The notes beneath the pieces are model-generated. The model was not told the DNA's origin. It searched no databases and saw only the letters and a list, made by a program, of their open reading frames with translations. Both the position numbers and the translations under genes were made by a program. Below are positions 47,700-63,530 of a DNA stretch of 64,000 nt, one piece after another. Each line of letters begins with the position of its first letter. Within the stretch, counting starts at the first letter, position 1. The stretch is from Octopus sinensis (lineage: Eukaryota), in contig NC_043003.1 in the NCBI RefSeq assembly GCF_006345805.1, positions 104,780,001 to 104,844,000 on the forward strand, given 5' to 3'.

Positions 47700-50600
47700 C
47701 CGCCATTTTGTGCTACACTGTTATTACGACGAACCTCGTCTAATATGTGGCACTTGATGAAGAATGGAGTTTGATATAGCTACCCTCATTTGCACCTCTT
47801 GCCGTGAGGTAGGTTCATCTGGGACTCTTGACAGGAAGGGGTCCAGCTTTGATTTAAAAACCGCTACATCTACTTTGTGCAAGTTCCTCAGACCCTTTGG
47901 GAGAATATTAAAAAGCTGTGGGCCCTTGAAACCCAGGCTGTTGCAGAAGCTGGTCTTGAAGCGTGATGGCATTGCTGGGATCTTTGGCACTATGCAGTGT
48001 CGTCCTGTTCTAGCATTGGTGTAGCTTACAATGCCAAAATTTGGCACAATTCCTTCCAGGATCTTCCAGACATATATTACTGCATACCTCTCCTGTCTTC
48101 TCTCCAGGGAGTAGAGACTTAGCTGTTTCAACCTTTCCCAGTAGCTGAGCTGTTGCAAAGAGACGATCTTCTTTGTGAATCTTCTCTGGATTGCTTCAAG
48201 GTCCGCTGTTAATCTCACACTGGTGGGTGACCATAGCTGTGAGCAGTAATCCAGGCAGCTGAGGACGAATGTCTGCCAGAGGACCATCATGGTTTCCTTA
48301 TCTTTGGTTCTGAATGTTCTTAGGATCCATCCAGCCAGTCATCTGCACTTTGCCGCCATCCTGGTAATGTGCACTTGGAAAGAGGTATCCTCACTCATGT
48401 CGATACCCAGGTCCCTCACTGACTTAGGCTCTGGGATTGAAATTCCCTGTGGACCTGTGGACCCTGTAGGTTTAATATTCAGTTTTGGATGCTGGTAGCG
48501 CAGGGCCTGGAATTTTTCAGCATTAAACCGCATATTATTATCCTCAGCCCATCTGTAAATTGAGTCCAACTCCTGCTGCAGGTGTGCAACACTGCTGGGG
48601 TTCTGTATTTTCTGTGAGACTTTCATATCATCTGCATAGCTTGCCAGAGTGGCTATCCAGGCATTTGAGGGCATATCTGAGAGGGCCACTATAAAAAGCA
48701 GTGGTCCCAAGACAGTGCCCTGTGGAACACCACTCACTATTTGTGTGTTCATAAAGGTGGCTCCATTAGCCACTACTGCCTGACTCCTATCTTTCAGGAA
48801 GTCATGTAACCACACTCCAAGTTTTCCAGCTATGCCGAGGTCATGCAATTTGTGGCATATCATACCATGATCCACCTTGGCAAAAGCTTTTGCTTAATCA
48901 AGGTATATTACGTCCACATTTGATTTGTTGAGTAACTGCCTCAACACCCAGTCATAATGCTGTAAGAGCTGGGTCAGGCAGCTCCTACCTGGCTGAAAAC
49001 CATGTTGGGTTTCACTTAGCAAGTTATTTTTTTCAAGGAATGCGATTAGTTTCCCTCTGACTATCTGTTCCATGACTTTGCTGATGTGTGAAGTCAGAGA
49101 GATAGGCCTATAGTTTTTGGCATCTGCTCTATTTCCCCCTTTATGTATTGGGCATATTATTCCCTCCTTCAGCTTGCTTGGCAGTTTGCTATTTGTAAGA
49201 AAGCTCTGGAAGAGGCATGTTTACACGATTTGAGGAGGATTGCTGGGAAACCGTTAGGACCAGCAGTTGAGTTTGTGTCCACTTCATCTATGGCTAGTAG
49301 TACATCTTCTTCGCTAATGTCAATGTATTCTATTGTAACTGCCTCGCTGGTTATAGGCGAGGCGGAAAAGAAGTCCACTGGTTCGTTCACTTGTCTGTGT
49401 TCCAAAAGACACTTTTGAACTGGTCATTCAGTATCTCACTGATCTTAGTTGGACTGTCTATGAGGGAGCCATCCTTTTGGAGGAGGGGTCCTATCTTGTA
49501 GTGTACTGAGGCTGTTTCTTTCGCATAATGAAAGAAGGCCTTTGGGTTTGACTAAATGTTTTTTATAACCAAGGCTTCTTTGTCTGCTTTCTCCCTCACA
49601 TAGGATTGTTGCAGCCTTTTTCCGATCTCAATCAGTGTTGTTTTTAGGCGGGACATTTCGCTACTTTTGGGATGTTGGTTGAGACGATTTGCAACCTTCG
49701 TCCGTCGTCTCATGAGGATCTTCCTATCTCTTGGAATCTTGCTCCTATTTGTTTTGGCCTTGTGCTCTGGGACATATTTCTGGCATACGGCTTGCACAGA
49801 AGACATGAAACATTCTAGTTTCATGTCAATGTCTGGTGTGGAGAGACATTCCGGCCAGTCCTCTCTGAGGATCTCTTTGGATCGATTTCCAATCTGCTAT
49901 GTGGAAGTTCAGATTGGAGAGACTTTGGGTGCTTCCTTTAGGCTGTATGTCTCTGGTTACTTTCGGCCCAAGTATAGACAGCTCTATTATGTTGTGATCC
50001 GAGACTAATGTTGGTGTCACTTTCACATCATGAATGATGTCCATATTGTTCGTGAAGCAGATATCCAGAATGTTATTCGCCCTAGTTGGCTTGAGTACAA
50101 CTTGCTCCATGAATAAGGCATTGGTGAGGTTGAGCAGGGACTCCACCTGTGCTTGATTGCAATGAGTCATTCCTGAGAGTATGAGACCTTCAGGCCATTT
50201 GACGTTGGGGAAGTTGAAATCACCCATAAGAAATATGGTCACGTGGTGTTCCAGATTCATGAGGATTTCTTTAATTCTTGTGAGGCAATCTTCAAACTTT
50301 CCTGTGTGGTTTGGAGCATCAGGTGGCCAATATGTATTGCATATGACTATATTATGTTGTCTTATGTATACAATTAGAGTGTCACATACCGAATTTGAGT
50401 ATGACAGTAAGACCTGGGGTGTGAGGTCATCACGGATGTATACAGCAACTCCACCATGGCTCCTTTCCCTTCTGTCTGTCTGCAGTATGGCATAGTTTGG
50501 TACGTGTACTTCTGCGTCGTCTATGTCAGGGCTGAGGTGAGTTTCCATGAGTGCTATGCATAGGGCTTGATTGCATGCAGTAAAATCTCTCAGGAAAGAA

Positions 50601-51000
50601 CAGGCAACAGGCTCCCAATATTTAGTAAAAGTATTGGGGTGATGACTGTGCAGGCGTTAGGGGAGGCCATCCCGTGTCTGTTGATTGTGGTGGTCTTGCA
50701 TAGTGGTGGGCAAGGTTCCTTGTTTCTGCTTGGTGCAGCCAGGTTAGCTTCTGGACAATCCTTTGCTCCATGCACAAAAAAGACTCTTGTTCAGCTGCTG
50801 CGTTGCGCAGAACATCTGAGGAGCAGACTTCTTTTCTGAATGTTTTCCTGGGAGACATTTCTTGCCTTTCCTCAGTAAAGTTCTTCTCTTTAAGGCCCCT
50901 GTAGTTCTGGCGGGGTTGTCGGGTGGGCAAACCGGCAGTTTTTGCCGTCCTCTCCATGCCAACATTTATAATGCCTGAAGTTTAAAGAAAGTATTTATTT
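47700..51000 (-). mobile_element. Near-complete degenerate CR1-group LINE (APE endonuclease, RT, C-terminus; Cys-rich ORF1 remnant)
   Basis: ETHL, GGVAVYI, GDFNFP.V.W, PTR..NILD, SDHN (APE); SGVPQGTVLGPLLF, YADD (RT); many frameshifts. Confidence 0.92.
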
Positions 51001-52215: not shown

Positions 52216-52743
52216 GTAAGAAGAAAAAATATCCAATATCCTCCTCGATTTGCTATTTTATTATCCATAACAATCATACCACAGACATATCTTTCTATAC
52301 ATTTACATCGCTCTGTCATTCTGGTTCCATTCGTCCGATTATGTCTACCACTCATCACCCATTTCTATAAAACGATGCTCGATGTAAGTTTCCAATAATA
52401 TTTTGTACAAAGCCACACCATGGAAACATCGAAGTGTGTATATATGATACTAAATCGATTTCTGCCCATTGATACTTTATTGATCCCTCAGCATGCTCCG
52501 TTATATATACATATATATATATATACGCACGTGTTTGTGTATTACTATATATGTTGATACTGTAACATTATATCAAAGTCCCAGAAATGTCTCCACCACA
52601 CATACGTATGTGTGTGTGTGTGTAAGTGTTTTGTGTATGCAAACGTGTGCCTGTCTGACCAGTTTGTGTATGTATATACACGTTTGTGCACAGGTGCATG
52701 TGTATACACATCCATATTTGAATACACACACACGCACCTTGCA

Positions 52744-52982
52744 TGTACTAATTGAGAACAGTGGTCCCGGTGCGCGCACTCGCGCATCCGCGCCAGCTAG
52801 TCATGGCTAGTCGATCCTTACTTTGTGTTTCCGTATTATTTATTTTGTTTAAAAAATTATTTATTTTGTGTTTTATTTACTTTGCTATGTAGTCGTTGTA
52901 GGATCGACTAGTCACGACTAGCTAGCGCGGATACGCGACTGCGCGTGTGCGCGCACCGGGACCACTGTTCGCCAGTAGTACC
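52744..52982. mobile_element. GGTAC-terminus MITE, second copy; no 8-bp TSD, flanked by an approximately 130-bp direct duplication
   Basis: homologous to 34533-34756. Confidence 0.88.
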
Positions 52983-54379
52983 GTGTTTATGTATATATGT
53001 GTGTGTGTGTAAGTGTTTTGTGTGTGCAAACGTGTGCCTGTCTGACCAGTTTGTGTATGTATATACACGTTTGTGTATAGGCGCATGTGTATACACATCT
53101 ATATTTAAATACACACAGACACACACCGCTGTGAATAATAAACAAAATGGTTTCATGGCAGGCTGTGGGAATGGTTAAGGGATTCGAACGTTTCGATTGA
53201 GTTCGTCGTTGCAATTGGTGTGAAAAGATCTGTTTACAGCTGATGGAAATATACAAACAAGCAAGGGACATAACTACAGTAGGGAAATGTTTTGAAAACG
53301 AGACTGGATCTTGTAGATCTGGCGTAGATCTGGATCCTTCAACAGGTGGAAACTGTGGATATAATTCGGTCTTAGATCTCCATCCTCAGAGGAGTTTATT
53401 CTATCTATTTGCTCAAAGGTGTGTAGCGATTTTTAAATTCTCCATGGAGGATGTACATAGACTAAGACAACACAATGAAATCGAATGATTTGACATTTAA
53501 TATGCAGATGGGATCATTTAAAAAATCTTTCTGAATTTATTGTGATTGCGAATGTTGGAACACAAACAAAGGACATTACGGATGGAGTGGGGGCGGGTTT
53601 AATACTGGCCTGGGTTATAACCTATGTCGCATTCACGAGGGACCTTTCATATGCAACATTCGTGCGACATTCTTCCATCTGTTATCAAACACTTGTCCTT
53701 AGTCGGGCATTTTCTCTCCAGCCCTATTTGTCTCTTAAGGTGAAAGATGAAAAAGTTCACCAAATTAGGGCCAGAGATGAAGATTTAACGAACTTAGCGT
53801 GAATATCTCTTTCTTGTACTTTCGGGGTACAAGAAAGGCAATCACTAGCCGTTGCTTTAATAATCCAGAATTCTACCAGTCAGAAACAACAAGACGCAGA
53901 CGTAAAATATATATATACTACTTTATTCTCTTTCTTGGTAACAATAACAATAAGTGTGTTATCTGATGTCCTTGGTTCTGGGCGCGCAAGGCTGAAAGTT
54001 AATCGATTGTAATATTTACAATATTCAGCCGCCAAAAACAGAACGGGTCAAAATGGCGTCCAGAGGAAGAAGATGATGTCTGCAACAATCCAGGTTAAAG
54101 GCCTTTTGGTAAGGACTGCTAGAAGCAAGTTCGAACGGAGAGAAAATATGCGTGACCGTCTCCTTCAATCGCTGCTGTCCCAAGTCCCCGCTGCTGCTGC
54201 CAGCAGTCAAACGTTCTACGGCCCCTTGCCTCACTAACTGCTACGTAGGCAATAGGGTTCTTCTTCCGGTGCTTCGCGCATGCGCGAGAGGGCCCTTCCT
54301 CTCACTTGGTGAAGGCACCAACACGCGCGAAATAGAAAATGGACGGTGCGCGCGTGCGCGCCGTTATAGTATCACTACA

Positions 54380-54391
54380 AGGCTCCCCTCC
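54380..54391 (-). other. Polypurine tract preceding the 3' LTR
   Basis: GGAGGGGAGCCT|TGTAGTGA. Confidence 0.85.
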
Positions 54392-55902
54392 AGTGCGTAC
54401 GCACGAAAGGAAACTTATTGTAGTGACTGCAAAACTCAAGGTGGACACCAGATAACCAAATAGCACACAATAATATAAAATGGCAAAATTTATAACATAC
54501 ACAAGAAATTTACTAAAGGAAAAAGAGAAAAAATACTCAATGAGCAAAAATCAAGAGTGCATGCATGAAAGTGTATACGTCACAAAGTATAAAGCCTTCC
54601 GCTGTAGGAAGCGGAAGAAAAGGCAGAACTCACAGTTTTTGAACCTAGGCGAAATTAAAATCCAACTTCTCTAAAGGTAGTTGATCCTGCGAAATAGCAG
54701 TTAAATCAATTGCTGCAGGAGAGGAAATGGAATTGACAGAAGCTCGCTAGTAACACAAAAGGCAAAAGTGCAAACATGCTGGTGTGATGCGCGACACAGA
54801 TAATTTTCTGTTATTTACGTGACCAACAGTGGTCTAACAGGGAAAAATAATTACGCCTAAACATGGCGCAGCGCATGTGAACATCCGACGTCCTATGAGT
54901 CGGGAAAAGAATTAAGCTAACGCAAACGTGTTGCAAAAGAAAAGGCAATACACATGCGAAGCAAAAGGCGCATGAAATGCAATAGAGCTTGCCAGACGAA
55001 AAACAGCAATGAATATGCCAGTGGTTGAGCGATTATATGCCTCGTTCGTACAGGAACAAAAGTATGACATGCTGGCGCGTTATAATGGACAAACAACCCT
55101 CTCTATGTATACGTGACCGACCTAGGGTCTATAGAAATGAGGGGTGTCCACAAAAGGCAAATTTAGCATGGAACAAACAAGCGAGAAAAGCATGTGTGAC
55201 GTATGTATGTGAGAGAGAGCATTTATGTGTGTGTACGTGTGTGCGACAGAAATACATACAAGGTGAATGTGAGCAAAATATAAAAACAGCGCATAGAAAA
55301 AATGTCTCTTAAGGCTATTCCAGACAAGAGTTAATTTACCAGTCTGTAATAGCCTGAAGCACAATAGCAGTTCCTTCTGTAACAGAAATGTTGAAATCAC
55401 AAAATGCAGATGCCGGTTGAACACAATGTGTAGCGGTTGTGGCTTCAATGCTGTGACAGGTTAACTGGAACAGAAGAATCTCGTAGATAGACGGTGCTGT
55501 TTATCCTTGGTGTGCATATGCACAAAACAGCGTGCACGCTAAAGTTCCGTGAGTTGCTATGTACATCTTGGTGGAGGTCGACGGTGTTGAAAGGCGACGG
55601 TGGTGGTGGCGACTGTAGTGGACTTGAGACAACATCGTTCTTAGTGATGATGGCGACGAAGATAACGACGACGTGAAGTAGAAAGACGACGATGATGATG
55701 ACGAAGGCAGAGAAAAAGCATCGATGATATGATGGCGTTCGTCATCATGGCTGTAGAATAAGAAAGAGGCTCCTTCTACAACTTTGTGGTGGCCGGAAAA
55801 CAAATCGTCGAAAGATGAATGCGTAGAGTTAAATCGTGTTCCGACTTCGCAGAAAAACTGGATTTTTTTTTTGTTGATAAGTGATCTCTGGTTTTAGACC
55901 AG

Positions 55903-55921
55903 AATCACGTCGGGGTCACCA
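55903..55921 (-). other. Primer-binding site complementary to the tRNA-Trp 3' end
   Basis: TGGTGACCCCGACGTGATT, 2 nt after the 5' LTR; complement of ...AATCACGTCGGGGTCACCA. Confidence 0.92.
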
Positions 55922-57601
55922 GTTTAACGAACTTAGCGTGAATATCTCTTTCTTGTACTTTCGGGGTACAAGAAAGGCAATCACTAGCCATTGCTTTAAT
56001 AATCCAGAATTCTACCAGTCAGAAACAACAAGACGCAGACGTAAAATATATATATACTACTTTATTCTCTTTCTTGGTAACAATAACAATAAGTGTGTTA
56101 TCTGATGTCCTTGGTTCTGGGCGCGCAAGGCTGAAAGTTAATCGATTGTAATATTTACAATATTCAGCCGCCAAAAACAGAACGGGTCAAAATGGCATCC
56201 AGAGGAAGAAGATGATGTCTGCAACAATCCAGGTTAAAGGTCTTTTGGTAAGGACTGCTAGAAGCAAGTTCGAGCGGAGAGAAAATATGCGTGACCGTCT
56301 CCTTCAATCGCTGCTGTCCCAAGTCCCCGCTGCTGCTGCCAGCGGTCAAATGTTCTACGGCCCCTTGCCTCGCTAACTGCTACGTAGGCAATAGGGTTCT
56401 TCTTCCGGTGCTTCGCGCATGCGCGAGAGGGCCCTTCCTCTCACTTGGTGAAGGCACCAACACGCGCGAAATAGAAAATGGACGGTGCGCGCGCGCGCGC
56501 CGTTATAGTATCACTACAAAGATGTCTGACCTTAACCCTTGCATTCTTGTCTTCCATATCACCTGTCTCGCAATTACTGCTACAGAGAGAAAACAATTCT
56601 TACCTTCCGCATGCCTGACACCTCCGAACACTGAGCAATACCGTGCAGAATGGTTTCCCTATCCCGCCCACATCTTGGACAGGTCAGAGTGTCTAGGCAT
56701 CTGTGCCTTGAGAGTTTGTCCCGAACAGGTAAGGCGCTGCGGTAACACTGCTACACCAAAGACTCCTGAAAATTATCCAGGGTCTTCAGCCCGAATGTAC
56801 GTTGGGACAGACTGGCTTGTTGGTTATCATCAAAACCTAGGGTCTCCCCTAATGTATCATCGCATTCTGCCTCTACAAACCCTCTATAAAAGACAGCGGT
56901 GGAACCACTATCACAGGCCTTGCCTGAGTGATGGAAGAGCCAGAGTGCCTTGCGACACTAAGATAGAACCAGGTTTCCCATCCACCGAAACTAGTGAACT
57001 TGGGAAACGTCTGTTTCGCCAGCGAAGACCACACCCGTTCACCATCCAGGTAGAGCCACAGGTGCCTCAGCCTCAGCGCATGCCTGCACATCAACAACCA
57101 AGACATCCCTAGCCCACCCTTTAACGGTTGTTGGCAGCAAATAGAGCGTTTCACAAGCGGTTTCGAGCCCTGCCACATGAAGTGGAAGAGCTGTCTTTCC
57201 AGCTTGATGAACTATGAATCAGGGCAAGGAACGACAGTTAGGCGGTAGGTGATGACCAATGTGATAAATAGATTGGCCACCTCCACCTCCCTTTCAGGAT
57301 AGACCAGGTCGTGTAGATGCCTCAACCAAACTACAGACTGGTGGTTTCCCTCGCTCCCAACTAATAAAAAATCAATGGCCACAACTCCAGCTGTCCAACT
57401 TCCAGCCATCGTTCCTGTCTACCGCAATATTCGGATTGCCTCACATGTTGAGAAACAAAATTACCAGTTCACCTGCCATTTGCTGACGGTTTCTTAAACA
57501 ACAGAAAAAAGAAGAAAAAAACCAAACACACAAACATTTTTTTTCAGCGGACTGCAACACAAGTTTGGTGGCCAAAAAAAAGAAAAACAAAAATTTTTTT
57601 C

Positions 57602-58395
57602 GGATCTTTTCACTTTGACCGGCAGATTTTTAAAATAATTTCTGTGTAACTAAAAAATTTTAAACTTCGTATACTGGTAGAATGTGTTTATAAAACATCT
57701 TTTTCTCTTGGCTTTCTTGAGAAAATTCTGTAGTTTGTAACACATTTGTTGTTTAATTTCTTGCATTTAGGCAATTTCAACCAATCAATGACATCTATTG
57801 AGGTGAATTCAATTTCTGCCATAACATTTTCTGGCAGCGTCATATGAAAATGTCCCTGTTACATATTATATATTCGTTTAAGAAACAGATTGGGTTTATT
57901 TACATTTCTGAAGAAAACAAGATACCCTCCCCACCCACCCCTAACCCTAACCTTAGCCCTAACCCTAAACCTAACCCTAACTCTAACCCTAACGCTAAAA
58001 CAGATTGAAATGCAATAGATCGATACTAGGGTCATAATTATGGGTGGACACTAAAGAGTGAACGGTTTTGTTATCCAGCTCTGTTTACGAGTGACCCCTC
58101 AGTTTATGTCTACAGGGTATCTTTTTTCTCATAAAAAATAGGGACATTTTCATATGACGCTGTCATAAAATGTTACGACAGAAATTGACTTTACCTCAAC
58201 AGACTTCATTGATTGGTTGAAATTGCTGAAATGCAAGAAATTAAACAACAAATATGTTACAAACTACAGAATTTTCTCAAGAAAGCCAAGAGAAAAAGAT
58301 ATTTTATAAACACATTCTACCAGTATACGAAGTTTAAAATTTTTTAGTTACATAGAAATTATTTTAAAAATCTGCCGGTCAAAGTGAAAAGATCC
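57602..58395. mobile_element. GGATC-terminus foldback MITE, copy H (794 bp), containing a telomere-like tract
   Basis: B/C-type TIRs of about 190 bp; D/G-type interior; no TSD seen. Confidence 0.92.
57939..57998 (+). repeat. Ten (CCCTAA)-type hexamers: 6 perfect, 4 variant
   Basis: direct reading. Confidence 0.95.
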
Positions 58396-58535
58396 GTGCT
58401 GCACACAGTACACAAACAGTTCAAAAATTTTGCTACGGAATTTTTTTTTCGTGCACACACATTACTATTCCAGCAACACTTTTGTCAGTTTCTTTGGTCC
58501 TTTTCTTTTCCCTCCTCTGTAAAGAAAAACAAAAC

Positions 58536-61500
58536 ATGAGTCTTCCCAACTTACCCACGTACTCTGTGGACATCACGCTTTGGTCCGTTCAGTTAGATGT
58601 GTATTTTTCAGCTAATGCGGTGCCTCACCAACAGCAGCTAAATCTCTTGTATTGTGGGATGCCTGCACCCCTTGCACGCTCAGTGAAAGATCTCATCACT
58701 GACTCCAGATGTAACATATGTGTCTGTCAAATATGAGGTTCTCCGTCGGAACACACAATTCGCAGACGGTATGCAGGATGAACACCTGGGAGATAGGACG
58801 CCTTCTGAGTTTCTTTGTCGTTTGCGTGAACTCAGTAGCACTCTGCTTGAGGACAATCCTCTGCTTGAGGACAATCCTCTGCTTAGGAAATTATTTTTTC
58901 TCTCGGCTACCACCGAATATCCAATCCATACTGGCCACAACAGACAAGATCATAGAATTCACTGTGCAGCCTGCACTTCACCATACCTGTTCGGTCACCT
59001 AAGTAGCTTCCTCTACTACCTACAAGGGGCTAAACACAGAGGGGACAAACAAGGACAGACAAACGGATTAAGTCCATTACATCAACCCCAGTGCGTAACT
59101 GGTACTTGTTTAATCGACCCCGAAAGGATGAACGGCAAAGTTGACCTCGGCGGAATTTGAACTCAGAACGTAATGACAGATGAAATACCGCTAAGCATTT
59201 CGCCCAGTGTGCTAACATTTCTGCCAGTTTGCCGCCTTCCTCTACTACCACAAAGTCTTCTCCCTGGTCACATGGACCCCGAAAGGATGAACGGCAAAGT
59301 TGACCTCGGCGGAATTTGAACTCAGAACGTAATGACAGATGAAATACCGCTAAGCATTTCGCCCAGTGTGCTAACATTTCTGCCAGTTTGCCGCCTTCCT
59401 CTACTACCACAAAGTCTTCTCCCTGGTCACATGAGGACATTTTGGAGAGAGTCAATGCATTAGTACATCGCATGGACACATTGTGGCAAGAACACACCAG
59501 CTTTCATCGTCCTCGCAGCAGAAGCCGTTCTAGGTCACGGTCGTCTTGTTCTATGCCAACGGTTTCCAATCTCTGCTGGTACCATGCCACATTCATGGAC
59601 AAAGCCTGTCGTTACATCTAGCCCTGTTCATTTGAGTTGTCAGGAACCTAGTTACGGAAGATTTGGGCACAGACTCTTCCTGAAATTTTTCATCTCATCG
59701 TGCATTCTTTGTTAAGGATGTGTGTAACAAATCGTTCATGGTTGACACTGGATCCAGCTGTTCTATTTGGCCTTTGCGTCTTACTTCAGACAAGCCTAAG
59801 CAATCTGCCATTAACCTGCTTGCGGTGAATCTATCCCCAATAAAAACTTACGGTTAGGTCTCTTTACACCTAGATCTCAACCTTCAAAGGGATTTTAGGT
59901 GGGTTTTTGTTATAGCAGATCTACCATATCCCATTCTGGGCGTAGACTTCTTAAACCACTTTCACTTATTAGTAGATGTCAGGCGACAGAGACTCGCGGA
60001 TGATTCTATGTCTTTGTTTATGCCTACTCGGGTTACTACAAGGGCTATTTTCAGCTCATCATTTTTTGTCTCCACTGCTGATGACCAGTTCCACTCCCTT
60101 TTGGCTTCTTTCCCAGAGCTGGTGGATCTGACTTTCAAATCAGTCAGTCACACACTCGAATCGCCATTATATCATTACTTCTAAACCACTTGTTTTTCGT
60201 GTCCACGGAGACTCGCACCTGACCAGCTCAAGAAGGCTCGGTCTAAGTTTGAGCATATGCTTCAACTCGGCCTTATTTGCCCTTCCCCCAGCCCTTGGGC
60301 ATCTCCTCTATATTTGGCATGGAAAGGGGATTCAGATTTTCGCCTGGTGGGGGATTACAGACATTTGAATGCAGTCACTGTTCCTGATCGCTATCCTATA
60401 AGGAATCTCCAAGATTTTCTTCAAACTTGCATGGTCATACTATTTTTTCCAAGGTTGACCTCATCCAAGCTTATCTGATTCCAATGAACACTGACAACAT
60501 TCCCAAAACTACCTTTACCACCCCCTTTGGAAGTTTCAAGTTCCTGTTTATGAGTTTCAGTTTGCAGAATGCAACAAGCACATACCAGAAGTTTATTGAC
60601 GGAGTTGTCTGTAGACTTGTCTTTGTGTTTGCTTACATTGATGATTTGCTCATAGCTAGCGACATGAGTGCAAATCACCTCCAACACTCATCTCAACTTT
60701 TTCAGCATCTTTGCACCTACAATGTGCAAATAACCCCGATAAGTGTGTTGTCATTTTCAGCATCAACTTGAGGGCCAAGATTTTGTGATTTATACTGATC
60801 ACAAGCCTCTTATGTTTGCTTTGTTGTCTAAATCAGACAAACACTCACCTTATGCTTTTTGTCACCTGGACTACATTTCCCAGTTCATGAGTGACATTTG
60901 ACATATACCTGGAACAGAGAACGTGCCTTCTGGATTTCCTAGGTCATTTTATTGACTCTAATGATATCCGACCTCTCTTCAAAATCGATGCAATTCAACG
61001 CATCTTGCCTCCCACTTCTTTATGCCAACTGCATCATTTCTTGGGGATCGTCAACTTCTACAGGAGATTTATACCTAAATATGCAGACAAGTTACTTCCC
61101 TTGACACAACTATTGAAAGCAAATAAAAAAATAAATTCTCGTATCACTTTATCTGCCGAGGCATTATCTTCTTTTGAGTCAATCAAGAAGGAAATAGCTT
61201 CTGGTCCTTTGCTTGCACATCCGGTTCCTGATGCTCGTCTCTCTTTAACAGTTGATGCATCGGATTCTGCAGTTGGTGCTGTTTTACAACATACTGTTGA
61301 TAATCAGGCTCAGCCTTTAGCATTTTTTCTCATCAATTAAAGCCAGCTGAACATCATTACAGTACGTTTGATCAGGAACTCTTAGCAATTTACCTGTCGG
61401 TTTGTCATTTTCAGCATCAACTTGAGGGCCAAGATTTTGTGATTTATACTGATTGCAAGCCTCTTATGTTTGCTTTGTTGTCTAAATCAGACAAACACTC

Positions 61501-63530
61501 ACCTTATGCTTTTTGTCACCTGGACTACATTTCCCAGTTCATGAGTGACACTCGACATATACCTGGAACAGAGAACGTGCCTTCTGTTCTCTTTCATCTC
61601 CTGCTGCAATCGATTTATCTGCCATTGCGCACATTTGATCTAACTTCTACCAAGTTGTCCTGTTGTAAGTTTGCCTATCTTCCACTTCCGTCTGCTGAAG
61701 GCACAATCCTTTGTGATACAGCTACTGGTTCTCCCAGACTGTTTGTACCTGAGAATCACCAGCATTCTGTTTTTGATGCCTTGCATTCACTGTCACATCC
61801 TGGCATCGCTGCCTCAGTGAAGCTTATTATGGCTCGGTTTTTCTGGCCTAATATGCACCGTATGATCACTGTTTGGGCATGCTCTTGTGTGAAATGCCAG
61901 TATTCATGTCCACAGGCACATTCTCGCTCCTCTTGGACAGTTTTCTCCACTGGAGACTTGCTTTCGCCATGTCCACATTGATCTGGTTGGGCCATGGCTT
62001 GTCAGTCGCGGTTTCTCTTACATATTGACATGCGTCAATCGTTTCTCTCATTGGCCAGAGGCCATTCCAATAGTGGACATTTTCACTGAGTCAGTTGCTC
62101 GAGCTTTCATTTCTAACTGGATTGCTCACTTTGGTGTCCCAGCTAAAATAACCACTGATTGTGGACGCCAGTTTGAAGCTTCCTTATTTCGTGAATTGTC
62201 ATGAATCCTAGGCATTCATTACATTCGTACGACCAGCTACCATCCAGCTTCCAACGGGATAGTCAAATGTTTTCACAGGCAACTGAAGGCTGCTCTACAT
62301 GCCACTCCTGATCCACAGTCTTGGACAGAATTTCTGCCTATTGTTCTTCTTGGTTGCCACACAGCTGTTAAAACAGATTAGGTTTCTCCTCTGCTGAATT
62401 CCTTTACGGTACCATTTTGGCTCTCCCTGGTACAATGTTGGTGCCAGACAACTCATCACCTTCTGATCCAACATCGTATGTTACCAGACTTCACTCTTAT
62501 TTCTCAAGTCTTCCACACATGCATCCGCATGACCAGTTTATTCCCTCTCACATCCCATTGGACATTGACAAATGGACTCATGTTTTTGTTTGGGATGATT
62601 CTGTCAAGGGACCTCTCGTTTCTCCTTATAAAGGACCATTTCATGTGCTATCCCACACATCCAAAACTTTTAATCTCGACATCAATGATCAAGCAGAGAC
62701 TGTGTTAGTCAACAGACTTAAAAGGGCACATTTTGAGGTGTTCACACTCATTGATGATCCTTTACAACCACCTACACACCCACCTGTACATGCACCTTTG
62801 ACCATACCATCACCTATACCTCTACCTTCATCGCCACAACTTAACACAAACAAACCCTATGTCACCAGGACAGGCCGCATTGTGCACTGGTCCCAAAAAC
62901 TCACCAGAACTATTTACATTTAACCTTTTTTCCTTTTTCTTTCTGTGACAGACAATTGTTTTCTCATGTGCTGAACAATTCCAATGCCTTGCCATTGAAC
63001 TTTGTAAAAATAAAAATATTTGTGCATGCTCCTTTTATATTGCTTGTAATTATTTCTCTCAACTTATCACATTTTGCATTATATTTTGTACCACAGCTTG
63101 TTTGCGATCGGTGGCCATCTTTGCTTTCTTGTGCCTGCTCCAGTCATTCTAATTTTGCACTAGCGTTCTCAGCGGGGAGCCCCTGTAGTATGACACAAGA
63201 AGCCAGCACCATTTTATACGAGACCTCACTAGCAGCCATTACCTATGTCCGAGACAAGAGCTAGATCTCACCGACAACCATGTTGCCATGCACAAGACCA
63301 CAGCGAGACTCTCATCGGTAACATCTATTTAAGCAGGTGTATTAAGGTATTCAGTCTCTCTTCTCTTTCTCACTTATACTGAGAAACTCTGCAAACTGGC
63401 AGCTCACAGCGGATTCTTATCCTGCTCTAACTTTACACGTGAGTGGAGCAATAACGAACTACATGCTGCCATACAGATGGTCACTGGAATGAACTACATG
63501 AATAAGAACTAAAATAAACAACCATTGAAT
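58536..63530 (+). mobile_element. Degenerate Ty3/Gypsy LTR retrotransposon, CsRn1-type (gag, protease, RT, RNase H, integrase, PPT 63171-63183, 3' LTR from 63184)
   Basis: gag LW..QL..YF, RSRSRS-CWYH (decayed CHCC motif); VDTGS..S; SPWASPL, RLVGDYR.LN, YIDDLLIAS; HSLSHPG; AGCGGGGAGCCCC|TGTAGT; 5' LTR not identified; LTR 3' boundary uncertain. Confidence 0.92.
59021..59236 (-). mobile_element. SINE inserted in the Gypsy gag
   Basis: 13-bp TSD TTCCTCTACTACC (59008-59020 and 59237-59249). Confidence 0.9.

What the first reader, a model, noticed from the sequence alone, without database searches (positions are those of the whole stretch)
53785..56518. Young, complete, non-coding LTR retroelement (LARD/TRIM-like) with tRNA-Trp PBS and non-canonical TG...AA LTR ends
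Seen: two 595-bp LTRs differing by only 8 transitions (1.3%); a 19-nt tRNA-Trp PBS; PPT GGAGGGGAGCCT; TSD AAGAT (or 4-bp AAGA if the LTR is 1 nt longer); LTR ends TGTAGTGA...TCGTTAA rather than TG...CA; a 1.5-kb interior with no gag or pol similarity I can see; an 11-bp stem-loop near the LTR 3' end; and a 9-bp inverted repeat (54372-54380 / 54418-54426) enclosing the PPT. It interrupts a Tx1 ORF whose frame is restored on removal. Established: tRNA-Trp priming and a CHCC gag motif mark the CsRn1 Gypsy clade; non-autonomous LTR elements are best known from plants. Inference: a parasite of a CsRn1-type family, perhaps undescribed in cephalopods. The decayed Gypsy 2 kb away shares the GGGGAGCC PPT and TGTAGT LTR start, but its LTR body is different.
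Basis: partly seen in the sequence, partly recalled or inferred. Interest (0 to 1): 0.75.

Follow-up and report, generated by a model that had tools for sequence, protein, structure and literature searches.

The report
Helper-swapping non-coding Gypsy retrotransposon family
This is one copy of a family of over a hundred protein-less jumping elements that likely borrow the enzymes of intact Gypsy retrotransposons in the same genome and likely swap end sequences with them, and its odd 'AA' end is found only in this copy, so it is a new example of a known kind of genomic parasite.

Summary
The element is real and belongs to a family. It lies on the minus strand: two 596-nt LTRs (8 transitions), 4-bp TSD, 20-nt tRNA-Trp PBS, PPT. 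An internal junction has 130 exact matches genome-wide; 39 complete copies have 1.50-1.55 kb interiors without a conserved ORF. Two first-reader claims fail. The family ends in TG...CA; only 1 of 61 LTR/PBS matches (this copy) has AA, and TGT...AAA ends are already reported for CsRn1-like elements (PMC2582038). The interior is not free of pol: it holds a broken 163-nt pol remnant, leader and 3' UTR of coding CsRn1-type Gypsy families in the same genome, plus a piece of another family's LTR. Those coding families share PBS, PPT, LTR termini, TSD length and age range, so they are the likely helpers. Sister subfamilies keep the same cargo but carry 3' ends 91-98% identical to different coding lineages, which points to repeated exchange. 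The parasites have a full 18-nt PBS (37 of 39); coding copies have 10-12 nt (13 of 13). No look-alike among the scan's earlier notes. New member of a known kind.

The parts
53780..53783 (.). target-site duplication, left copy (AAGA, 4 bp)
   Evidence: sequence; 4-bp TSD in 34 of 38 other complete copies and 7 of 7 solo LTRs
53784..54379 (-). 3' LTR, 596 nt, TGTAGTGA...GTTAAA (family: ...GTTACA)
   Evidence: junction spanned by contigs of runs X1 and X4 with 0 differences
53809..53837 (-). 11-bp U5 stem-loop; a hairpin at this place is predicted in coding copies too
   Evidence: fold z -4.3; folds of 14 LTR ends
53960..54099 (-). about 140-nt LTR block 94% identical to coding lineage A, upstream of AATAAA (53922-53927); likely R or promoter-proximal (inferred). 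Twin at 56099-56238
54371..54427 (-). hairpin that pairs the 3' UTR with the PPT and the first bases of the 3' LTR; inherited from the coding elements
   Evidence: -31.1 kcal/mol, z -4.9; outer stem 95.8% paired over 29 sequences, one compensatory pair
54380..54391 (-). polypurine tract GGAGGGGAGCCT
   Evidence: the same or a near motif in 13 of 13 coding copies
54392..54558 (-). 3' UTR derived from the coding elements (78-82% identity)
54577..54739 (-). broken pol remnant (RNase H-integrase linker), 89-90% identical in DNA to coding lineage A, with stops and frameshifts
   Evidence: 0 of 19 indels are multiples of three
54740..55162 (-). non-coding cargo of unknown origin, shared with sister subfamilies (about 75%)
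55163..55767 (-). cargo derived from the LTR of another tRNA-Trp/CHCC Gypsy family ('LTR-X'), same sense, ending before that LTR's AATAAA; BLAST core 55319-55654, outer limits by eye
   Evidence: 70% over 352 nt, E 3e-30; sister copies 80-97%; LTR-X type precedes a PBS and gag-pol frame in L052
55783..55901 (-). 5' leader derived from the coding elements (72-77%), with a predicted hairpin just after the PBS
55902..55921 (-). primer-binding site, 20 nt complementary to tRNA-Trp(CCA)
55923..56518 (-). 5' LTR, 596 nt
56519..56522 (.). target-site duplication, right copy (AAGA)
   Evidence: junction spanned by contigs of X1 and X3 with 0 differences
   Evidence: zf-RVT at 56583-56750, E 1.6e-4, below the curated cut-off; 71-76% to RT-bearing loci L111 and L120; stops and frame changes

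Best explanation
This is one complete copy of a high-copy, protein-less LTR retrotransposon family whose RNA is likely packaged, reverse-transcribed and integrated by the Gag and Pol of intact CsRn1-type Gypsy elements in the same genome. Shown: family size, 4-bp TSDs, tRNA-Trp PBS, PPT, TG...CA ends, no conserved ORF, and a mosaic interior (helper leader, foreign LTR piece, unknown 0.4 kb, broken pol remnant, helper 3' UTR). Inferred: the ancestor arose from a coding element by deletion plus capture of foreign RNA. Transcription from the 5' LTR gives an RNA primed by tRNA-Trp at the PBS and at the PPT. Template switching in shared particles would explain why sister subfamilies with one cargo carry the 3' UTR and LTR of different coding lineages. 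The AA end is most simply a single C-to-A change in U5 before or during reverse transcription, copied into both LTRs and accepted by the integrase. The cargo is most likely a passenger.
For: 40 scored interiors at 92-100%; 130 exact cargo/pol junction matches, 0 in the control; 35 of 37 loci picked only by the LTR/PBS motif were complete copies, 1 truncated, 1 a chance match, none coding. No conserved ORF: longest ATG ORF 56-164 aa, 16 of 117 cargo indels are multiples of three, variable sites are even over codon positions. Helpers: 26 of 150 listed pol matches lie in open frames of 1000 aa or more; RT, RNase H and integrase domains; CHCC in 9 of 13 extracted coding copies; shared LTR start TGTAGT, end TACA, PPT and PBS; overlapping ages, 0-1.7% against 0.17-3.0% plus one recombinant at 8.4%. 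Exchange: L082, L091, L111 and L113 have 3' UTRs 95-97% and U3 85-98% identical to lineage C, L092 91% to lineage B, L056's 3' LTR 96% over 308 nt to lineage A, while lineages A and C are far apart.
Against: No coding copy shares the window element's U3 (20-60% identity over LTR 41-280), so the exact helper is not identified. Lineage C's one extracted representative (L071) is itself internally deleted, so the direction of exchange is open. L056 lies on a 22-kb contig and could be an assembly chimera or a later gene conversion. Transcription is not shown. The copy sample is biased to near relatives of the window copy. The bootstrap of the LTR tree had not settled.
Confidence: 0.88

Rival explanations
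1. The cargo is a selected functional RNA module (packaging signal, enhancer or silencing decoy) that explains the family's success.
For: Interior 94.4% conserved against 85.6% for LTRs across 39 copies; length held at 1496-1553 nt; same cargo order in sister subfamilies at about 75%.
Against: Coding lineage A shows the same contrast (interior 97.9%, third codon positions 97.6%, LTR 88.9%), so fast LTRs explain it without selection. No fold signal recurs in the cargo across 3 copies; no Rfam match at gathering level; copies lacking much of the interior exist (L014, L057).
Confidence: 0.12
2. One-off deletion derivative of a coding Gypsy element, of no family significance.
For: Leader, pol remnant and 3' UTR align to coding elements.
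Against: At least 130 copies share the internal junction, each complete copy has its own TSD, and about 1 kb of the interior is not from the helper.
Confidence: 0.01
3. A family with non-canonical TG...AA termini served by an integrase of altered specificity.
For: Both LTRs of this copy end in AA with a clean TSD.
Against: 60 of 61 junction matches read CA; the exact AA junction occurs once; TGT...AAA ends are reported for other CsRn1-like elements (PMC2582038, passage).
Confidence: 0.02
4. Parasite subfamilies co-diverged with their helper lineages without recent sequence exchange.
For: Each subfamily is nearest to one coding lineage, and LTR and interior distances correlate within the family (rho 0.62).
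Against: Identity of 95-98% in 3' UTR and U3 to lineage C is far above the 75% cargo identity between subfamilies; L093 combines a 97% lineage-A pol remnant with 68-77% LTR identity.
Confidence: 0.1

Closest known systems
CsRn1 clade of Ty3/Gypsy (CsRn1, PwRn1, AgCR1-14; PMC2582038, passages read)
   Same: tRNA-Trp PBS, 4-bp TSD, TGT...ACA or TGT...AAA ends; the coding partners have CX2HX9CX3C gag and overlapping gag and pol frames. The clade is reported in 9 of 12 cephalopods (PMC6238403, passage).
   Different: The element encodes nothing, has a full 18-20 nt PBS and carries about 1 kb of foreign cargo. Clade placement rests on features, not on a tree with named references.
Non-autonomous LTR retrotransposons co-evolving with autonomous partners, wheat RLC_Angela and Wilma/Sabrina/WHAM (PMC9744471, passages); sugar beet families (PMC13570524, passages)
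   Same: Shared PBS and LTR termini, overlapping ages, LTR trees that mix parasite and helper, host switches ascribed to template switching, modular and chimeric interiors with coding remnants.
   Different: Plant systems; this one is an animal CsRn1-type case, with a foreign LTR piece inside.
TRIMs, including animal ones (biv-TRIM PMC6934838, passages; Helenus and Ajax PMC10886601, part 1 of 6 and passages)
   Same: Non-coding, LTR-PBS-PPT-LTR; animal Helenus has 4-bp TSDs and is ascribed to Gypsy helpers.
   Different: TRIMs are under 1000 bp with 100-250 bp repeats; this is 2735 bp with 596-nt LTRs and no tRNA- or 5S-derived LTR promoter was found.
Non-coding LTR elements of Culex (38 cqUNK families) and LARDs (PMC3286476, passages)
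   Same: Kilobase-size non-coding LTR elements in an invertebrate genome.
   Different: The Culex families carry tandem repeats and have no known master copy; here helpers are traceable and pol remnants remain.

Membership tests
Non-autonomous LTR retrotransposon | two LTRs with TG...CA termini and TSD | tested here: met
   35 of 38 other copies TG...CA at both LTRs, 34 of 38 exact 4-bp TSD (one miss is a 2-nt cutting error); the window copy ends AA
Non-autonomous LTR retrotransposon | PBS and PPT next to the LTRs | tested here: met
Non-autonomous LTR retrotransposon | no coding capacity for its own mobility | tested here: met
Non-autonomous LTR retrotransposon | amplified as a unit at dispersed sites | tested here: met
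Non-autonomous LTR retrotransposon | mobilised in trans by a coding partner | not testable with these tools
   inferred from shared PBS, termini, age range and an LTR block, the criteria listed in PMC9744471
CsRn1 clade (coding partners) | tRNA-Trp PBS | tested here: met
   13 of 13 coding copies match tRNA-Trp over 10-12 contiguous nt
CsRn1 clade (coding partners) | 4-bp TSD | tested here: met
   11 of 13
CsRn1 clade (coding partners) | CX2HX9CX3C (CHCC) in gag | tested here: met
   9 of 13; 7 of 7 in lineages A and B, absent from the deleted L071 and from L064-L066
CsRn1 clade (coding partners) | RT phylogeny with CsRn1 and Kabuki | not tested
   no named reference sequences were fetched
TRIM | under 1000 bp with 100-250 bp terminal repeats (PMC6934838) | tested here: not met
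   2735 bp, 596-nt LTRs
Helenus/Ajax/Cassandra (TRIMp3) | tRNA- or 5S-derived sequence in the LTR | tested here: not met
   no tRNA or 5S match up to E = 1
LARD | several kb long (over about 4-5 kb, recalled) with a conserved non-coding interior and no coding remnants | tested here: not met
   2.7 kb, pol remnant present; PMC13570524 argues that these size classes blur
LARD | conserved RNA structure in the interior (recalled) | tested here: inconclusive
   hairpins at PBS and PPT only; nothing recurrent in the cargo in 3 copies

The most novel reading that the evidence does not exclude
A long-lived parasitic RNA lineage keeps one chimeric cargo, stolen from a distant Gypsy LTR, and survives by repeatedly taking the 3' UTR and LTR of whichever CsRn1-type helper is active. 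It outcompetes the helper for primer with a full 18-20 nt tRNA-Trp site where the helpers keep only 10-12 nt, and the cargo is a selected cis-acting module.
Probability: 0.15. Interest if true: 0.6.

Novelty: new member of a known kind. Interest (0 to 1): 0.36.

Why it matters
Non-autonomous LTR families with traceable helpers are well documented in plants and less so in invertebrates; biv-TRIM and the Culex families have no identified partner. Here parasite, several coding lineages, intermediate deletion stages and apparent recombinants sit in one genome with overlapping ages, which makes a usable case for studying helper switching in an animal. The systematic PBS difference is a testable route to parasite advantage. 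For annotation, the AA end is a single-copy variant and should not define the family.

Tried and rejected
L001, with LTRs 8.3 kb apart, looked like a coding partner but is a tandem duplication around solo LTRs. The neighbouring decayed Gypsy (58.5-63.4 kb) is not the helper. L040 is a chance motif match. Rfam gave only a sub-threshold trypanosomatid snoRNA match, E 0.32. A short ATG frame at interior position 853 is open for 50 codons or more in 36 of 39 copies but changes frame after about 20 residues. Higher conservation of the interior than the LTR as evidence of selection was rejected by the coding-lineage control. Covariation in the PPT hairpin is weak: score 0.140, 63 of 500 shuffles as high. 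The origin of 54740-55162 was not found in about 1.05 Mb of fetched loci beyond one 58-129 nt match in L028. Expression: no RNA holder listed on record; two runs guessed to be RNA hold family leader and PBS pieces, but they may be DNA and show neither strand nor locus. An empty-site join in run X2 differs locally from the window and may come from a paralogous LINE copy, so it is not taken as polymorphism. A first tRNA pattern found nothing. Earlier notes of the scan gave nothing on this family. Repbase and Dfam could not be searched.
Full report
Observation. The element lies on the minus strand. The two LTRs differ at 8 sites, all transitions, 6 of 8 at CpG. Relatives decide the register: of 38 other complete copies, 34 have an exact 4-bp TSD and 35 read TG...CA at both LTRs (L009 was cut 2 nt off by my script and shows a 4-bp TSD), and 7 of 7 solo LTRs have 4-bp TSDs. 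The PBS matches the 3' end of a genomic tRNA over 20 nt counting the CCA tail; 36 genomic sites carry that tRNA end, and ARAGORN of the 3 fetched tRNA-Trp(CCA). The U5 stem-loop and the PPT-enclosing hairpin fold well above shuffles (z -4.3 and -4.9, 0 of 200 each).

The AA end. A pattern allowing either base found 61 LTR/PBS junction matches (1 in the control); 60 read CA and only the window copy AA, and the exact AA junction occurs once. Contigs of runs X1 and X4 span the 3' LTR junction with no difference; the 5' LTR's AA rests on the assembly, as one search listed no contig across it. Reverse transcription copies one U5 into both LTRs (established knowledge), so a single change in the template explains both. 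PMC2582038 (passages) reports TGT...AAA and TGT...ATA ends in CsRn1-like elements; its additional file with the ends was not opened.

A family. The LTR gave 40 scored matches out of 871 first-look candidates and the interior 40 out of 677, at 92-100%. The cargo/pol junction has 130 exact matches and 0 in the control, sister subfamilies included. Of 37 loci chosen only by the LTR/PBS motif, 35 were complete copies, 1 truncated and 1 a chance match; none was coding. My script extracted 39 complete copies (the window's among them), 13 coding-type and 3 sister elements; about a dozen further complete copies seen were missed by its motifs and are not in these counts. Interiors are 1496-1553 nt. LTR divergence runs 0.17-3.0%, plus one recombinant at 8.4%, median 0.83%; the window copy is 30th of 39. 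With the calibration quoted in PMC13282606 (distance 0.09 for 25 million years; passage), 1.34% is about 1.9 million years, likely an overestimate given the CpG changes.

Not coding. The longest ATG frame per copy is 56-164 aa and none is shared at length; 16 of 117 cargo indels and 0 of 19 in the pol remnant are multiples of three; variable sites are even over codon positions.

Helpers. A pol piece of the neighbouring Gypsy found 150 scored matches, 26 of them in open frames of 1000 aa or more, 2 of these with a stop inside the match. Of 20 fetched, 13 were extracted with paired LTRs. They have RT, RNase H and integrase domains, CHCC gag in 9 of 13, tRNA-Trp PBS, 4-bp TSDs in 11 of 13 and LTR divergence 0-1.7%. 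These are the CsRn1 features in PMC2582038, and the clade is reported in 9 of 12 cephalopods (PMC6238403, passage). I built no tree with named references. Lineage A (L061, L062, L067, L068, L076, L080) is nearest to the window copy: pol remnant 89-90%, R-U5 81-83%, and a 140-nt LTR block at 94%. Its U3 differs (20-60% over LTR 41-280), so the exact helper is not pinned down.

Anatomy of the interior. After the PBS come about 120 nt of helper leader; about 600 nt resembling the LTR of another family, LTR-X (70% over 352 nt, E 3e-30; up to 97% in sister copies); about 420 nt of unknown origin; 163 nt of broken pol; and about 170 nt of helper 3' UTR with the PPT. LTR-X occurs as solo LTRs of about 1 kb, and a relative in L052 is followed by a tRNA-Trp-type PBS and a gag-pol frame. 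The captured piece stops before LTR-X's AATAAA. Sister subfamilies have the same cargo at about 75% and the same left pol junction, but keep about 500 nt of pol, so the window's subfamily is a later deletion stage.

Exchange with helpers. L082, L091, L111 and L113 have 3' UTRs 95-97% and U3 85-98% identical to lineage C; L092 has a 3' UTR 91% identical to lineage B; L093 has a 97% lineage-A pol remnant; L056's 3' LTR is 96% over 308 nt to L068 while its 5' LTR is family-type. In the LTR tree the sister elements group with lineages B and C and the main family with A; the bootstrap had not settled. Against: L071, the only lineage-C representative extracted, is itself deleted, and L056 is on a small contig. 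Such host switches are described in wheat (PMC9744471, passages) and chimeric families in sugar beet (PMC13570524, passages).

PBS length. Of 39 parasite copies, 20 match tRNA-Trp over 20 contiguous nt, and 37 match 18 of 18 once slippage in the C run is allowed; 13 of 13 coding copies match only 10-12 contiguous nt. Two sister copies (L091, L113) have the short helper-type site. A priming advantage is inferred, not shown; one search for a precedent gave no listing that names it.

Is the cargo selected? The interior is more conserved than the LTR (94.4% against 85.6%), but coding lineage A shows the same (97.9%, third positions 97.6%, LTR 88.9%). No fold recurs in the cargo in 3 copies scanned. 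The PPT hairpin's outer stem is 95.8% paired over 29 sequences with one compensatory pair, but overall covariation is not above shuffles (63 of 500), and it is shared with the helpers.

Target. The flanks are a decayed non-LTR element (zf-RVT E 1.6e-4, below cut-off; matches to RT-bearing loci). The phase is the same on both sides, but the copy has many other lesions, so the insertion likely hit dead DNA.

Novelty. Seven literature searches listed no description of such a family in a cephalopod; Repbase, Dfam and paper supplements were not seen, so it may already be catalogued. Non-autonomous LTR elements are known in animals (PMC6934838, PMC10886601, PMC3286476; passages). The scan's notes held no look-alike. 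Verdict: a new member of a known kind, interest 0.36.

Noticed in passing
L101-L120 (e.g. L103:2906-5852): A roughly 3-kb repeat in TA runs, Helitron-like by its ends (label recalled, not tested), carries a captured leader, cargo and U5 tip of a sister subfamily; 15 of 20 loci hold the cargo-U5 junction, several with tandem 42-bp leader repeats.
   Followed up: partly
L052:771-3897: LTR-X-type LTR, PBS and a single gag-pol frame of another CHCC Gypsy family, interrupted further on by a copy of the family described here.
   Followed up: partly
L056:5395-5978: 3' LTR with a helper-type R-U5 and a family-type U3, differing 8.4% from its 5' LTR although the TSD is intact.
   Followed up: partly
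L082; G000:C1:85425165-85427359; G000:C6:93959325-93961401: Tandem units about 2.05-2.6 kb apart, as known for TRIMs; L082 was read, the other two are seen only as paired junction matches.
   Followed up: partly
window 58400-63450: Decayed Gypsy with gag-pol remnants, a 159-nt tandem duplication (59113-59430) and a 185-nt duplication (60748-60932 / 61402-61586); 68-71% to the coding lineages.
   Followed up: partly
window 57601-58396: Element with 260-nt inverted arms (94%) around telomere-like CCTAAC repeats; MITE-like.
   Followed up: no
window 52607-53124: 131-nt direct repeats flanking nested 46-48 nt inverted repeats.
   Followed up: no
window 47724-50981 (minus strand): Fragmented non-LTR retrotransposon frames with endonuclease- and RT-like stretches, by eye.
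   Followed up: no
G000:C6:69581463-70142416; L121: A cluster of 18 matches to the tRNA-Trp 3' end; L121 has that end followed by an encoded CCA but is not called a tRNA.
   Followed up: no
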